A DNA stretch of 64,000 nt, from assembly GCF_018977255.1 (NCBI RefSeq), contig NW_024704768.1:3968001-4032000 (forward strand). The letters run 5' to 3'. Positions 54,501-63,500 of the stretch are shown piece after piece. Positions within the stretch are counted from its first letter, which is position 1; each line of letters begins with the position of its first letter. Position numbers: made by a program. This stretch comes from Callorhinchus milii. Lineage: Eukaryota.

Positions 54501-57500
54501 TTCAAATTTTCAAGACTGAGGTGAACAGATATCTGTTAGGTCGGGGTATTAAGGGATACTGGGCAAGGGTAGGTAATTGGAGTTGAGGTACAGATCAACC
54601 AAAGTCTAATAGAATGCAGAACAGGCTCGAGGGGCTGAATGGCCTCTTGCTGGTCCTGTGTTCAGAGAGTGGGAGCAGATAGGTTTGATAAAATCAGAAG
54701 CAGAACAAAAGGGCACTGGTTTCTCTGGGGGCGAGAACATTAGCACAGACACAAAGGATCAAGTGGCTCCTTTCTGTGCTGCATAAATCATTCTAAGTGC
54801 CAAAGCCAATCTATTCCATCTATAGCTCTCGCCTCTTCACTTTGACCCATTGTACTTATTCCCACCCATTCATCACTTCACACAAGCCAAGAGCCCTCAA
54901 TTACTTCATCCCACGAGTAGCCATTCTTCCTGTGGGAGTTGGAGTGAGCGGAAGCAGTGAAACATTAACAGGCTGTGCGAGTCCCGTTAACTCTTGTGCA
55001 CAAGTGAAGCCCAGTAGAATAAAGAGGACACGGAATGGCAAAAGGGCCATTTCAGGAAGTGTTCCTTTACTCAGAGGGTAACTCTGGAACAATGTCTCTC
55101 AATCCCTCTGCCTTGACCCCCTCCCCTCCCCTTTTTCAAATCCCACCTGAGAACCTTCCTCCTCGACTGTGCTTATGGCCACCTCCATCCCCCCCGGCTC
55201 GGAGTCAGGCTCCACCACTGTTAAGCGCTCTGAGACTCTGCCCTGCGTGATGGGCGCTATATACGTGCAAGATGTTGTTGTTTTAATCAAGGACTGGAAC
55301 AAGGTTGCCAGGAAGGGTGAGGGTTGGTTAGGACCAGGGACATTGAGACTCGTTTAAAAAAAGCAGCTCGATGCTGTGATGGGGGGAATGGGAGGGCGGG
55401 TGTTGCGGAGGCGATGAGATGGGGTTGGCCAAAGGGCCTTCTTCATGCCGAACCCACCTTGTGATCTTCTATGACCTGATCATTTCCTAGGAGCTGCTTT
55501 GAGCCAACGAGCCATTGAAATGGGAGACCTTTTTGGGTCTTAGGACAATGTATCAAACGGGACCTTTCCTCAAACCACTTTGCGAGACAGACAGAAAGTA
55601 AGAAAGAAAGAAACAGGAAAAGGGTATTGTTTAGTCTGTTGGATTTATTGGGTTATATTTGCCGCTGAGAGTGTGTGTGTGCGGGGCTGAGAGTAATACA
55701 CACACACGGGCGGGCGGGGGCTGGGGTGGTGGGGGGGTTGGAGTTTAATCTTCCAGGACCCGGCGGAAGGAACCAACCCTGGGGTTGGGGGCTCCCCAGT
55801 CAGTGTAGCGTCTGTATTCCCCCCGCTCCAGCAGGTACTGCCTCCCCCTGTAGTTGGGCTGCTCGTAGAAGACCCAGGTGCCGTCCGTCACGCTGCAGGC
55901 CTGGATCTCGCGGGAGGGGAAGCAATCCTGCAGGTTGGGGCAGTCGTCCATGAACTCCATGGACTGACCCCCAAACTCGGGCCTCTCGAACGCCCTCATT
56001 TTGTGGACCCCACTCCTGGCCTGTGAAGAGAAGCCAAACAAAACGTCAGGAAGGGCGGGCGGGCGGGCGGGCGGGCGAGGGATTGGGTGGGTGGGAGGGT
56101 TAGCGGACAATCAACAACAACAACAACAACAGAGCCCTCCCTTCAGCGTCCCGAAGAGCTTAACAGTGGCAGAGCCCGAGCCCCGGGGCAGGCAGGAGGT
56201 GTTCGTAAAGGCAGACGCCACGTGGGGTAAAGAAGGAAGGGGGGCACGGAAATTCAGCCCACGCTGCTCTCCCTGTCACTGACTCCCTGACACACGCACA
56301 CTCCCATTATTATTATATGGTTATTATTACTAATACAGGACGATATAACTACTCACCACACGGATGGAGCGACAGGATCTGATGCAGTCGTTAAAGCCCA
56401 TCCAGCGACTGGAGTCCGGATACTCTCCCCTGGTTAACACATACATGTAGCCCATGAAGTTGGGGCGCTCGTAACACGCCCAGGTGCCGCTCTCCACACG
56501 GATGGAGTTACAGCGGGTGAAGTAAGTGTACATGTCAGGGCACTCGTTGGAGGAACACTCATAGTGTCGGCCTTGGAAGTTCCTCTCCTCGTAGAACACG
56601 ATCTGGAACAGCAGAGAGAAGCTCAATGTCCACATCGCATCATAGAATCTTACAGCACAGAAGGAGGCCATTCGGCTCTTTGAAAGGAGCCCCCAACTAG
56701 TCCCACTCACTCCCCCCACTCCTACCCCCAAAGCCCTGCACGCTGTTCCTTTTCAAGTCCCCATCCAATTCCCTTTTGAAACCTACTATCGAATCTGCCT
56801 CCACCAGCCTTTCAGGCCGTGCAACAAGTCTCTGGGTAGAAAAATATCTCCTCGTCTGGTCTCCCATCTGGTTCTTTTGACAACTATCTTAATTCTGTGT
56901 CCTCCGGTTGCCCACCCGCCCGCCCGCCAGTGGGTAATAACCTCTCTCTCAAAAAGAAACCAAATAATAATATGGTCACTTAATCCACGACTGTTTGTGG
57001 GGACACTGCCGGGCGCAATTGGCTGCCCACAAAATACACAGTCACTCCACTTTACAGCGTATCCCGTGAAGCGCTTTGAATCGTCTCGACGCCGTGATAA
57101 GGCGCTGTGTCAAATGCAAGGATTGTTATTCGGATTGCGGTAGTAACATTTCAATGCTGCGAGGAGACACCTTCTCCCTTACCTTTCCCATTTTGCCTCG
57201 GATAGAATGCTGTCCTCCGACGACTGTGCTCCAGAGGAGGGTTATCAGGTTATATAAAGGCCCCACAATGAAAAGTGTGGATAAAGTGCTCTATTGATAT
57301 TTAAATCGTGCTGGGGGGGAAATCAGCAAAAAAGGCAAATTGCTGATGTGTGTTTTGACGTTTAACACCCATTTACCATTTACTTTGTAACTGTGCTATG
57401 CAACGCAAATCATACCGCCTTCGCATGTCAGCGGTTCGCTTATTTCCTCAGCACGATAGCGCTGGAAACAGAAGTTGCCGGAAAAGAAAAATAATAATAA

Positions 57501-60500: not shown

Positions 60501-63500
60501 CCAGGGAGTCAGTGACAGGGAGAGCAGCGTGGGCTGAATTTCCGTGCCCCCCTTCCTTCTTTACCCCACGTGATGTCTGCCTTTACGGACACCTCCTCCC
60601 TGCCCCGGGGCTCGGGCTCCGCCACTGTTAAGCTCTTCGGGACGCTGAAGGGAGGGCTCTGTTGTTGTTGTTGTTGTTGATTGTCCGCTAACCCTCCCAC
60701 CCACCCAATCCCTCGCCCGCCCGCCCGCCCTTCCTGACGTTTTGTTTGGCTTCTCTTCACAGGCCAGGAGTGGGGTCCACAAAATGAGGGCGTTCGAGAG
60801 GCCCGAGTTCGGGGGTCAGTCCGTGGAGTTCATGGACGACTGCCCCAACCTGCAGGATTGCTTCCCCTCCCGCGAGATCCAGGCCTGCAGCGTGACGGAC
60901 GGCACCTGGGTCTTCTATGAGCAGCCCAACTACAGGGGGAGGCAGTACCTGCTGGAGCGGGGGGAATACAGACGCTACACTGACTGGGGAGCCCCCAACC
61001 CCAGGGTTGGTTCCTTCCGCCGGGTCCTGGAAGATTAAACTCCAACCCCCCCCACCACCCCAGCCCCCGCCCGCCCGTGTGTGTGTATTACTCTCAGCCC
61101 CGCACACACACACTCTCAGCGGCAAATATAACCCAATAAATCCAACAGACTAAACAATACCCTTTTCCTGTTTCTTTCTTTCTTACTTTCTTACTTTTCT
61201 CGCAAAGTGGTTTGAGGAAAGGTCCCGTTTGATACATTGTCCTAAGACCCAAAAAGGTCTCCCATTTCAATGGCTCGTTGGCTCAAAGCAGCTCCTAGGA
61301 AATGATCAGGTCATAGAAGATCACAAGGTGGGTTCGGGATAAAGAAAGCCCTTTGGCCAACCCCATCTCATCGCCTCCGCAACACCCGCCCTCCCCTAGA
61401 CTGTGAGCTCAAAGCCCTGACCTTGTTCTTGAAACCACAACTTCGTCACGACAACAACAAGTTGCATTTGTCAAGCGCCCTTTACGTGGGGTAGTGTCCC
61501 GGGGCGCTTAAAACGCAAGGAGGCTTCCGCGAAGCGGGATAGACACGGAGATGGACATCGAGGACACATCAAAGCACTTGGAGAAGTGAAAGAAGCCAAG
61601 GAGGAAATTGAATCAGAAGGTATTCCGTTAAACTCACAAAATGGCTTAACCCGCAGAACACGATTAATTCCAATGTATTTTTTCCTCCCCAATAGCGTAA
61701 TAAACGGTGTCACTTCTGCTAATATATTTTTCCACCCGCAAACACTACTTTCAAAATCAATGGGAATGGAACCGTTGGCCAATTACAGAGACCTCTCAAT
61801 CACACGGAGAGATATTAGCAGCACAAGCATTCCAAAGCCAGGGTGCGACTGCACTGAAAGCCACAACCTCCCCAGCATCGCCCTGATCAGCCTTAATGAT
61901 AGATGTCGGAAGGGGAATTGAGGGAGTTCCAGAGGGTTGGGACGTGGCCACCGAGAGCACTGCCGATGATGGTGGAGCGGAGGAGGAGGGGGGATGAGGG
62001 ATGTGTTGGAGGCCCCAAGCTGGGGGGGGGTTGGGTGACGTGGCCAAGAAGAATGGGACGTGTAGGTGGTTCAGACAGGTAAGTATGGAGTTCCCAGGGT
62101 GTGAAGTGATTCATGGGTTCTATCAGATCTACATCTGCTGCGGTGTTCCAGTTTGACTGGCAACACAAAGCCTTGGCTATGTGTCAGCGCGAGTTTCCAG
62201 CCGGTCTTTCCACTCCGAGTCCGACAAAATACAATCTGACCACACCCGCCTGCTTCCAGCTGACCAGCCCAGCTTTCAACTCAACCTTTAAGTCAACTCT
62301 TAACTTAGCCTTTATCTCTTGCCAGACAGCTCTCTCTCTCTCTCTCTCTCGCTCAGTGGCCAAGCTATACGGGTTTAGCTGGTTAGACTCCAGCAGTCAC
62401 TCCCAACGCGCTCTCTGGGCTCCCTCCCCCCCCACCACCCCACTCCACCCCTACAAGCCTCGGATCACAAGATCACAAGTGATCAGCGCGATTATTGTGG
62501 TTATTATTAAAAATCAACATGAGTTTCTCCTGCTGTCGTGGCTAACCATCGAATCTCGCCCACGACTATAGTCAGTTCACTTGACGGTCTATTCTGCGAA
62601 GCGCTTTGAGACGTCTGGAAGACCGTGAAAAGCGCTGTATCGAATGCAAGGACTATTATTATTATTATTATCTTCACCCCGCCAACAGAACCGATGGCTG
62701 CGCATAAATCGGCTGCCACTGTTCGCCCACAAAATCAAGTGCCCGTGCGGAGCTTTGAGACATCTTCTTGGCGCGATCGAGCGCTCGATTAAACGCGAAG
62801 ATTTTTACTGTCATAAAACTAAGCAGGTTTTCTAACCTCGTTTGATGTGATTTGAATCGCGCACAGGGAAATGCAGTGGGAGCTCGTGTCAGCGACGCAG
62901 ATGAATGTATTTATATTACGCATTTGAATCATCAGATCTTGAAACGTTAATATATGCGCCTGAAACCAAGTTCAAGCGCATAGTGTAACACAACAATAAT
63001 ATTAATAATAATAATAATAATCCTTGCGTTTGGCGCAGCACCTTTCATGTCGGGAGGACGTCTCAAAGCGCTTCGCACGATTTTGCTGTGAGGCGTTAGT
63101 GACTGTGTGTTTTTGTAGGCAAAAGCCAAACACGCAATCGGACCACTTGACAGTAAATCCATGATTAATTATTGTTATGATGATGATTCAATCCTGTGCC
63201 TCAATCCGAGCAATCTGCCAATCTGCACTTAAAGCCAAATGAGCCAAAGTGCGCATTTGCGACGGATTCTTTCGAAGCAATTACTTTGCAGTGAAATCCA
63301 GCCCAGGAGGTCCAATTTTGCACCGATGTCACGCTAAGTTACATAAAATATTATGCAATATAACATGAAGTACAAAAACCGCTTACATTTGGTGGGTTTG
63401 ACGCAAATATACACTCAGCAGATTAAGTGTTGATGCATTTCAAATAAATATAACATAATGCAATGAAACACAGCCTGTAAACCTTCCCTCACGCTTACAA

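What the first reader, a model, noticed from the sequence alone, without database searches (positions are those of the whole stretch)
55390..61395. Head-to-head gamma-crystallin pair homogenised in an inverted repeat but with unrelated promoters and first exons
Seen: exons 2-3, intron 2, part of intron 1, the 3'UTR and ~250 bp of 3' flank are near-identical (two amino-acid differences). The 5'UTRs, exon-1 donors and promoters in the ~2.7-kb spacer share no evident similarity beyond ATGGGAAAG|gt. Inference: two old paralogues whose bodies were overwritten by palindrome arm-to-arm gene conversion, with tract ends in shared CR1 remnants. The result is nearly the same protein under two regulatory programmes. 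Recombination between arms could also invert the spacer and swap the promoters.
Basis: partly seen in the sequence, partly recalled or inferred. Interest (0 to 1): 0.7.

Follow-up and report, generated by a model that had tools for sequence, protein, structure and literature searches.

The report
Inverted twin crystallin genes, elephant shark
Two lens gamma-crystallin genes of the elephant shark point away from each other and have almost identical bodies but unrelated start regions, a neat but fairly ordinary case of one gene copy having overwritten the other.

Summary
Arms 55390-56895 and 59573-61395 are an inverted repeat, 1472 of 1495 aligned bases identical (98.5%), around a 2677-nt spacer. 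Each arm carries exons 2 and 3 of a gamma-crystallin gene, and the products differ at two residues. Each gene has its own ATGGGAAAG|GT first exon in the spacer (2 exact matches against 0.07 expected). Promoters, 5'UTRs and intron starts do not align better than shuffles.

The window is elephant shark (Callorhinchus milii), not human. Both genes are already public predicted proteins.

Introns and flank are about as alike (1.9% differences) as coding sequence (1.0%), so a sequence-blind copying process made the identity. Gene conversion, or a one-off replacement, between two inverted genes is the best reading.

The inner end lies inside a CR1-like LINE piece. The outer end is sharp and lies in unique DNA, so the CR1 claim is only half right. 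Intron 2 differs by 324 nt of old SINE. Copy B carries rare residues at two conserved sites. "Two regulatory programmes" and spacer inversion are untested.

New member of a known kind, moderate interest.

The parts
55390..56895 (-). Arm A of the inverted repeat. It holds the last 293 nt of intron 1, exon 2, intron 2, exon 3, the 3'UTR and 3' flank of gene A.
   Evidence: 1495 aligned columns with arm B, 23 mismatches
59573..61395 (+). Arm B of the inverted repeat, holding the same parts of gene B
56896..59572 (.). Spacer of 2677 nt. It holds both first exons, both promoters, the start of both first introns, several old SINE copies and one further CR1-like piece.
57183..57191 (-). Gene A exon 1 coding part (ATG GGA AAG), with donor GT at 57182-57181
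   Evidence: public protein P0122 starts MGK
56357..56602 (-). Gene A exon 2, 82 codons, N-terminal Crystall domain. The public model P0122 uses a donor 3 nt upstream (81 codons).
   Evidence: Pfam PF00030 E=1e-29; splice sites
55745..56020 (-). Gene A exon 3 coding part, 91 codons plus TAA, C-terminal Crystall domain
   Evidence: Pfam PF00030 E=7.7e-35
59159..59167 (+). Gene B exon 1 coding part (ATG GGA AAG), with donor GT at 59168-59169
   Evidence: not used in the public model P0121
59865..60110 (+). Gene B exon 2, 82 codons
   Evidence: Pfam PF00030 E=6.3e-29
60763..61038 (+). Gene B exon 3 coding part, 91 codons plus TAA
   Evidence: Pfam PF00030 E=1.5e-34
60162..60501 (+). Block in intron 2 of which 324 nt exist only in copy B. 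It holds an old SINE fragment (60237-60474).
   Evidence: gaps of 218+105+1 nt; 34 hits in the window, best identities 68-89%
56640..56949 (-). CR1-like LINE 3' fragment in intron 1 of gene A (ends approximate). Identity to copy B falls from about 95% to about 67% at 56895/56896.
   Evidence: the CR1 label is recalled from the translated tail; Pfam gives no family
59440..59830 (+). CR1-like LINE 3' fragment in intron 1 of gene B (ends approximate), longer on its 5' side than in A
56927..57137 (+). Old SINE copy in intron 1 of gene A, antisense to the gene, with its tail towards exon 1
   Evidence: 44 hits in the window, best 80% over 183 nt
59190..59377 (-). Old SINE copy in intron 1 of gene B, antisense to the gene, with its tail towards exon 1
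   Evidence: 25 hits, best 77%; the copy in gene A ranks sixth at 70.5%
57250..57305 (-). Gene A promoter candidates: TATATAA (57256..57250, 65 nt before the ATG) and TTTAAATA (57305..57298, 114 nt before the ATG)
59070..59077 (+). Gene B promoter candidate TTTAAATA, 89 nt before the ATG
61135..61140 (+). AATAAA signal of gene B; the mirror site of gene A is 55644-55649 (-)
   Evidence: read

Best explanation
Two divergently transcribed gamma-crystallin genes of the elephant shark lie 1967 nt apart, start codon to start codon. One gene received the body of the other by a non-reciprocal, homology-guided copying event between inverted sequences (gene conversion or gap repair). The copied stretch runs from the middle of intron 1 to about 355 nt past the stop codon.

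The inner end of the copied tract lies in a CR1-like LINE fragment that both first introns carry. The first exons, 5'UTRs and promoters were not copied and remain unrelated.

Since the last homogenisation the arms have gained 23 substitutions and a few indels. Further patchy conversion between the arms probably continues.

Shown: the repeat, its limits, the gene models by sequence, and the lack of alignable 5' regions. Inferred: the mechanism, its direction, whether it is ongoing, and that both genes are expressed.
For: - Identity is sequence-blind. Differences are 7 of 292 in the intron 1 part, 5 of 312 in intron 2 and 6 of 357 in the 3'UTR plus flank, against 2 of 246 and 3 of 276 in the coding exons.
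- Both genes have a correctly placed and oriented ATGGGAAAG|GT first exon: 2 exact matches against 0.07 expected.
- Everything around these exons fails to align. Promoters give z = 0.5 with 90 of 300 shuffles reaching the score. Local tests reach the observed score in 551 of 1000 and 476 of 1000 shuffles, and the intron starts in 966 of 1000.
- At the inner end identity drops from 95.3% over 107 nt to 68% over 38 nt, inside a LINE fragment that continues in both genes.
- Mismatches are clustered: 11 neighbour gaps of 15 nt or less against 4.6 expected, P = 0.0008. They are denser at both arm ends, as patchy conversion would leave.
- In protein trees the pair sits on a long stem (0.65 and 0.48 changes per column) with tips of 0 and 0.04.
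- Two generations of public models keep the copies apart at the P/S site and at the intronic S/C site but disagree at M/V.
Against: - Outside the arms no unique DNA is detectably homologous, so there is no direct trace of an old whole-gene duplication.
- The outer end is a clean break in DNA without another copy in the window. A conversion tract needs homology on both sides, so this end looks more like a duplication junction.
- The two intron 1 SINEs are not each other's best matches. They give no proof of shared descent.
- There are no cross-species, population or transcript data.
- The public model of gene B ignores the MGK exon.
- Part of the mismatch clustering lies next to indels and at the fuzzy inner edge.
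Confidence: 0.55

Rival explanations
1. There was a single recent partial inverted duplication and no ongoing conversion. A segment running from mid intron 1 to 355 nt past the stop codon was copied once in inverted orientation. One junction formed by recombination or template switching between two CR1-like copies, the other by a non-homologous join. The copy landed behind an older, orphaned gamma-crystallin first exon, and since then the copies have simply drifted apart by 1.5%.
For: - The outer end is sharp and lies in unique DNA. The last 31 nt are identical, and the sequence beyond is unrelated (flank test 140 of 1000 shuffles).
- The inner end lies in a dispersed LINE family that has other copies nearby, at 58185-58323 and 13489-13670.
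- No homology of unique DNA is found outside the arms.
Against: - Mismatches are clustered rather than evenly spread (P = 0.0008).
- The M/V site differs between public models of the same copy.
- A well-formed first exon with a TATA-like box at a sensible distance still has to predate the event. So an older second gene is needed in any case.
Confidence: 0.28
2. The repeat is an assembly artefact: one gene was falsely duplicated in inverted orientation (fold-back or haplotype duplication).
For: - Short inverted duplications are a known artefact of long-read assembly (recalled).
- Reads cannot be examined here.
- One public older model mixes A-type exon 2 with B-type exon 3.
Against: - The 2677-nt spacer holds two different first exons with different flanks.
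- The arms differ by 23 substitutions and a 324-nt block.
- No N run lies nearer than 47639-47834.
- Both copies, with the same P/S and intronic S/C differences, appear in two generations of public protein models.
Confidence: 0.05
3. Copy B is a decaying or silent copy, so there is no 'one protein under two promoters'. Only gene A is a working lens gene, and B survives as a recently refreshed relic. This reading does not exclude either mechanism above.
For: - B has Ser where 116 of 119 relatives, and copy A, have Pro. It has Val where 85 of 119 relatives, and copy A, have Met. Each B residue is seen in only 1 of 119 relatives.
- The public model of B starts at an ATG inside intron 1 instead of the MGK exon, while the model of A uses MGK.
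- B has no TATAWAW match within 300 nt of its ATG, only TTTAAATA.
Against: - B's reading frame, splice sites and both Crystall domains are intact, with Pfam scores of 100 and 118 bits.
- Only 2 of the 5 coding differences change the protein.
- Public models are predictions, and they also disagree on a donor that is identical in both copies.
- The older public model of copy A also has Val.
Confidence: 0.3

Closest known systems
Gene conversion within vertebrate gamma-crystallin clusters. Basis: Plotnikova et al. 2007, of which only the title was seen in a reference list because the paper is not held; concerted evolution of rat gamma genes is recalled.
   Same: Same gene family, the same three-exon layout and homogenisation between paralogues.
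   Different: The human CRYGA-D/EP genes are described as 'arranged sequentially' (PMC3554465, passage); that this means tandem, same-orientation genes is my recollection. Here the partners are inverted and head-to-head. The tract covers introns and flank as one block, and the 5' ends are unalignable.
Palindromes kept alike by arm-to-arm gene conversion, such as those on primate sex chromosomes (recalled, no paper read here)
   Same: Inverted arms that are nearly identical through non-coding DNA, a unique spacer, genes inside the arms and possible spacer inversion.
   Different: The arms here are 1.5-1.8 kb rather than tens or hundreds of kb. Each arm holds only part of a gene, and the spacer supplies the first exons and promoters. 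Whether conversion is ongoing is not shown.
CRYBA4-CRYBB1 head-to-head crystallin pair (PMC3554465, passage; PMC6336207, search listing only)
   Same: Two beta/gamma-family crystallin genes transcribed divergently from a short shared region.
   Different: Those are distinct, old paralogues with no homogenised bodies. Here the bodies are 98.5% identical.
Species-specific clades of gamma-crystallin genes in cartilaginous fishes (PMC11979771, passages)
   Same: Same taxon and family. [quoted passage not shown]
   Different: This pair lies outside the large starred gamma clade that holds the other sampled elephant-shark genes in my trees. Its unalignable 5' ends show that near-identity of the bodies need not date the genes. 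Whether the paper's trees include the pair is in supplements that I could not see.

Membership tests
beta/gamma-crystallin, gamma type | Two Crystall (Greek-key pair) domains, one per large exon | tested here: met
   PF00030 matches all four exon translations, E from 6e-29 to 8e-35, covering 81-82 of 82 profile positions. The best solved relatives are gamma-S and gamma-B crystallins, E = 2e-44 and 1e-41 for exon 2.
beta/gamma-crystallin, gamma type | Three-exon gene with a three-codon first exon and introns between codons | tested here: met
   ATG GGA AAG|GT lies upstream of each body, and the acceptors and donors were read. That gamma genes have three exons comes from PMC3554465 (passage). 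There is no transcript evidence here, and the exon 2 donor is ambiguous by 3 nt.
beta/gamma-crystallin, gamma type | Abundant expression in lens fibre cells | not testable with these tools
named gamma classes (gamma-S, gamma-M/MX and others) | Falls inside a supported clade of that class | tested here: not met
   In trees of 54 and 49 hand-picked rows the pair is an isolated long branch. It lies outside the starred gamma-S trio and outside the starred clades of 41 and 27 rows. Its own attachment is unstarred (91/44 and 84/58).
palindrome with arm-to-arm gene conversion | Inverted arms nearly identical through non-coding DNA around a unique spacer | tested here: met
   98.5% identity over 1495 columns, of which 961 are non-coding. 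The spacer halves share only SINE and simple-repeat matches.
palindrome with arm-to-arm gene conversion | Arms more alike within a species than orthologous arms are between species | not testable with these tools
   No eukaryotic genome collection is on hand. Protein searches found no relative closer than 76% (exon 2) or 66% (exon 3) outside this species.
conversion between old paralogues | Lower but detectable homology continues beyond the tract ends | tested here: not met
   Unique DNA beyond both ends does not beat shuffles: 140 of 1000 for the outer flank and 966 of 1000 for the intron start. Only transposon-derived pieces align, at family-level identity of 66-71%.
   The CR1 label itself is recalled and only indirectly supported: PMC1845163 (passage) says the commonest LINE of this genome is CR1-like. 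Pfam finds nothing in the piece.
   Stretches 55298-56106 and 60685-61432 have no other copy in the window at E <= 1e-4. The nearest repeats start 93 nt (A) and 38 nt (B) beyond the ends, and they belong to a SINE-like family.

The most novel reading that the evidence does not exclude
The locus is a self-maintaining miniature palindrome. Ongoing arm-to-arm conversion keeps two gamma-crystallin bodies the same, while two unrelated promoters in the spacer drive them at different stages or in different lens zones. The spacer flips between orientations in the population and swaps promoters between bodies without cost. It would also be direct proof that species-specific gamma-crystallin clades in cartilaginous fishes are partly made by concerted evolution rather than by recent duplication. 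The pair would represent a deep, otherwise unsampled gamma lineage beside the SMARCC-like gene.
Probability: 0.2. Interest if true: 0.55.

Novelty: new member of a known kind. Interest (0 to 1): 0.35.

Why it matters
Gamma-crystallin trees in fishes and sharks are full of species-specific clades, and these are usually read as bursts of recent duplication (PMC11979771, passages). This pair shows in one locus that two genes can look like newborn twins over their coding bodies while their first exons and promoters share nothing. Part of that pattern may therefore be homogenisation. The pair also offers a small, testable case of the same protein placed behind two different control regions. Apart from that it is a standard outcome of recombination between inverted paralogues, and both genes are already in public annotation.

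Tried and rejected
1. Shared descent of the two intron 1 SINEs. They have the same order and orientation and start 22-45 nt after each donor, but they are not each other's best matches: 70.5% to each other against up to 80% and 77% to other copies. The short unique stretches before them do not align. The idea was dropped as evidence.

2. An apparent shared word (ACCTTGTTC) beyond the outer ends. The local score is reached by 140 of 1000 shuffles, so it was rejected.

3. An apparent extension of a SINE match over exon 1 of gene B. The printed alignment shows it runs through a degenerate AT-rich tail at 65% identity, so it was rejected.

4. Promoter motifs (consensus patterns recalled). TTTAAATA lies in sense orientation 114 and 89 nt before the two ATGs, with 4 matches in the window against 1.1 expected. 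TGCTGA half-sites lie upstream of both. However, a shared 8-mer in 120 x 120 nt is common (551 of 1000 shuffles), so this is kept only as a lead.

5. Naming the repeats. Rfam gave 0 matches at E <= 0.1 in 52000-64000, ARAGORN found 0 genes in 55000-62000, and Pfam found 0 families for the LINE-like piece.

6. In one search my exon 2 query was one base out of frame. The exon 3 query was correct: it found only the four known exons (E <= 4e-8) and nothing else below E = 0.2.

7. Plotnikova et al. 2007 is not held.

8. No structure, complex, atlas or representative search was run, because no open question needed one.
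Full report
**Origin of the window.** The window is not human. [quoted passage not shown] Piece by piece, the window's exon translations are contained exactly in public proteins of that species. P0122 (XP_042200134.1) holds exon 2 and exon 3 of copy A. P0121 (XP_007883196.1) holds those of copy B, including 11 residues read from the end of intron 1. The rule about human contigs therefore did not apply. 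The four N runs (7216-7364, 15050-15213, 31098, 47639-47834) lie far from the finding and were left alone. The spliced models were searched exon by exon. I made no joined sequence, and where full-length rows were needed I used public proteins as returned.

**The observation.** The repeat finder lists 22 inverted pairs in 52000-64000, and the first seven tile two arms. A global alignment gives arm A 55390-56895 and arm B 59573-61395. There are 1495 aligned columns, 23 mismatches (98.5% identity) and 9 gaps, around a spacer of 2677 nt.
- Gene A runs on the minus strand: exon 1 at 57191..57183, exon 2 at 56602..56357, exon 3 at 56020..55745.
- Gene B runs on the plus strand: exon 1 at 59159-59167, exon 2 at 59865-60110, exon 3 at 60763-61038.
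- The start codons are 1967 nt apart and the genes point away from each other.
- All four large exons match Pfam Crystall (E from 6e-29 to 8e-35). The nearest solved structures are gamma-S and gamma-B crystallins.
- The coding parts differ at 5 of 522 bases, and two of these change the protein: P/S in exon 2 and M/V in exon 3.
- A tblastn with the exon 3 peptide finds no further crystallin exon in the window below E = 0.2. My exon 2 query in that call was out of frame.

The one correction is that 324 nt inside 60162-60501 of intron 2 exist only in copy B.

**The identity is sequence-blind.** Differences per partition are 7 of 292 (arm part of intron 1), 2 of 246 (exon 2), 5 of 312 (intron 2), 3 of 276 (exon 3) and 6 of 357 (3'UTR and flank). 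Non-coding DNA (18 of 961) is thus only about twice as different as coding DNA (5 of 522). Selection on the protein cannot explain that. A copying process can.

**Outside the arms.**
- The word ATGGGAAAGGT occurs exactly twice in the window, once upstream of each body on the right strand, against 0.07 expected. With one mismatch allowed there are still only these two. Both first exons are therefore real gamma-crystallin first exons.
- Around them nothing aligns. The 260 nt before the two ATGs score z = 0.5, and 90 of 300 shuffles reach the score. Local tests of -120..-1 and of all unique upstream DNA reach the observed score in 551 and 476 of 1000 shuffles. The intron starts reach it in 966 of 1000.
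- A census against the whole window shows that the rest of the spacer is mostly old interspersed repeats. SINE copies lie at about 56927-57137, 57481-57872, 58036-58113, 58332-58542 and 59226-59377, with up to 39 matching places each. A LINE-like piece lies at 58185-58323.
- Pairwise identities of these SINEs are 65-89%. A passage of PMC1845163 says that the commonest SINE of this genome is tRNA-derived and the commonest LINE is CR1-like. Rfam, ARAGORN and Pfam gave no names, so my labels are by resemblance.

**The two ends of the identical tract differ in kind.**
- Inner end. Identity falls from 95.3% over 107 nt to 68% over 38 nt. This happens inside a LINE 3' fragment that continues in both genes, with A 56949-56896 aligning to B 59517-59569 at 67%. 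That is the level at which unrelated copies of the family match (67-78%).
- Outer end. The end is sharp. The last 31 nt are identical, and then the sequences are unrelated. The DNA on the arm side has no other copy in the window. The flank test fails, with 140 of 1000 shuffles reaching the score. SINE-like pieces of another family lie 93 and 38 nt further out in the same relative orientation, at 66%.

A conversion tract needs homology on both sides, so the outer end looks more like a duplication junction, or like a later indel that destroyed the homology. For this reason I cannot separate repeated conversion between two old genes from a single partial inverted duplication that replaced the body behind an older first exon. 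Both need an older second gene, because of the second first exon.

**Pattern of differences.**
- Mismatches are clustered: 11 neighbour gaps of 15 nt or less against 4.6 expected, P = 0.0008.
- There are 4 mismatches in the innermost 16 nt, 5 in a 48-nt patch of intron 2, and 3 within 10 nt lying 49-58 nt inside the outer end. Some lie next to indels.
- This favours patchy, repeated conversion but is not decisive.
- The B-only block in intron 2 is an old SINE fragment, no younger-looking than the others. I saw no target-site duplication. A deletion in A, or exclusion from conversion, is more likely than a new insertion.
- The arms are richer in G+C (0.548 and 0.530) than the spacer (0.475).

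**The two copies are not equal.** Copy A has Pro and Met. These are the residues of 116 and 85 of 119 relatives, and copy B's Ser and Val are each seen in 1 of 119. The census took all proteins listed except this species' own cluster. The public model of A starts MGK. The public model of B starts at an ATG inside intron 1. An older public model of copy A (P0016, also P0125) has A's exon 2 but Val in exon 3. So the M/V site is either polymorphic or was mis-assigned, while the P/S site and an intronic S/C site are stable. The public models also disagree on the exon 2 donor (SIR or SIRV), although that site is identical in both copies. The models are therefore predictions, not evidence of splicing.

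**Position in the family.** Outside this species the best relatives reach 76% identity (exon 2: 129 of 130 candidates at E <= 1e-10, 120 listed) and 66% (exon 3: 56 of 89 candidates). I built two trees.
- Rows were hand-picked from the named proteins: 54 rows of 172-217 residues, and 49 rows. Apparently fused models and many teleost rows were left out.
- The pair is joined at 100/100.
- It sits on a stem of 0.65 and 0.48 changes per column, with tips of 0 and 0.04.
- It lies outside the starred gamma-S trio and outside the starred clades of 41 and 27 rows that hold the other elephant-shark, shark, ray, bony-fish and frog genes.
- Its own attachment is unstarred (91/44 and 84/58).

No orthologue was sampled.

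**Promoters.** Gene A has TATATAA 65 nt and TTTAAATA 114 nt before its ATG. Gene B has TTTAAATA 89 nt before its ATG (4 matches in the window against 1.1 expected). Both have TGCTGA half-sites further up. That motif is one I recall from lens promoters. This hints that both are lens-type promoters rather than 'two programmes', but it is only a lead.

**Comparison with what is known.**
- Conversion among gamma-crystallin genes is in print. For Plotnikova et al. 2007 I saw only the title in a reference list, because the paper is not held.
- Head-to-head crystallin pairs are known for CRYBA4-CRYBB1 (PMC3554465, passage).
- Palindromes maintained by arm-to-arm conversion are known from sex chromosomes (recalled).
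- In the held library 3 papers hold both 'gamma-crystallin' and 'Callorhinchus' (2 listed), and 8 hold 'gamma-crystallin' and 'head-to-head'. None of the listed titles or abstracts describes this pair. I read passages of only two of them.

I therefore file the locus as a new member of a known kind.

**Unchecked.**
- Reads, other species' genomes, transcripts and populations could not be examined.
- The closed collections were not used.
- Genome contigs, which holds bacteria and archaea, was not scanned because it cannot bear on this question.
- The supplements of PMC11979771 may show where these two genes fall in the authors' trees, and they were closed.

Noticed in passing
window 33786-50074, minus strand: Exon-sized open frames of a SMARCC-type chromatin-remodelling gene. 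Pfam finds SWIRM-assoc_2 (E=4e-12), SWIRM, a Myb/SANT domain, and SWIRM-assoc_1 and SWIRM-assoc_3 pieces. Its 5' end lies about 5 kb from the 3' end of crystallin gene A. By recall it resembles SMARCC2.
   Followed up: partly
window 9510-11387, plus strand: One open frame of 626 residues with a DTX3L-type KH-like domain (PF21718, E=5.5e-11).
   Followed up: partly
window 13604-13972, plus strand: Open frame starting MAPKKDPKKP and followed by an Ala/Pro-rich run. By recall it looks like the first exon of a long myosin essential light chain. Pfam finds nothing.
   Followed up: partly
window 55000-62000 and throughout: A very dense, old SINE family with an (AAT)n-type tail and a tRNA-like head. 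Single copies have 25-45 matching places in the 64-kb window at 65-89% identity. ARAGORN and Rfam call none of them.
   Followed up: partly
window 59832-59864 and 56603-56635: Public 184-residue models of both genes begin at an ATG inside the polypyrimidine tract of intron 1 (MWTL..LLFQ) instead of the MGK exon. Public models also disagree on the exon 2 donor by 3 nt, although the site is identical in both copies.
   Followed up: yes
window 55960 / 60823: The Met/Val difference is not stable. Older public models of copy A (P0016, P0125) carry Val, as copy B does. This could be a polymorphism, a conversion or an old assembly mix-up.
   Followed up: partly
window 61433-61918, plus strand: Open frame of 162 residues just beyond arm B with no Pfam family. 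Its first part overlaps a SINE-like repeat at 61433-61558.
   Followed up: no
window 7216-7364, 15050-15213, 31098, 47639-47834: Four runs of N. They were left as they are, and none is near the finding.
   Followed up: no
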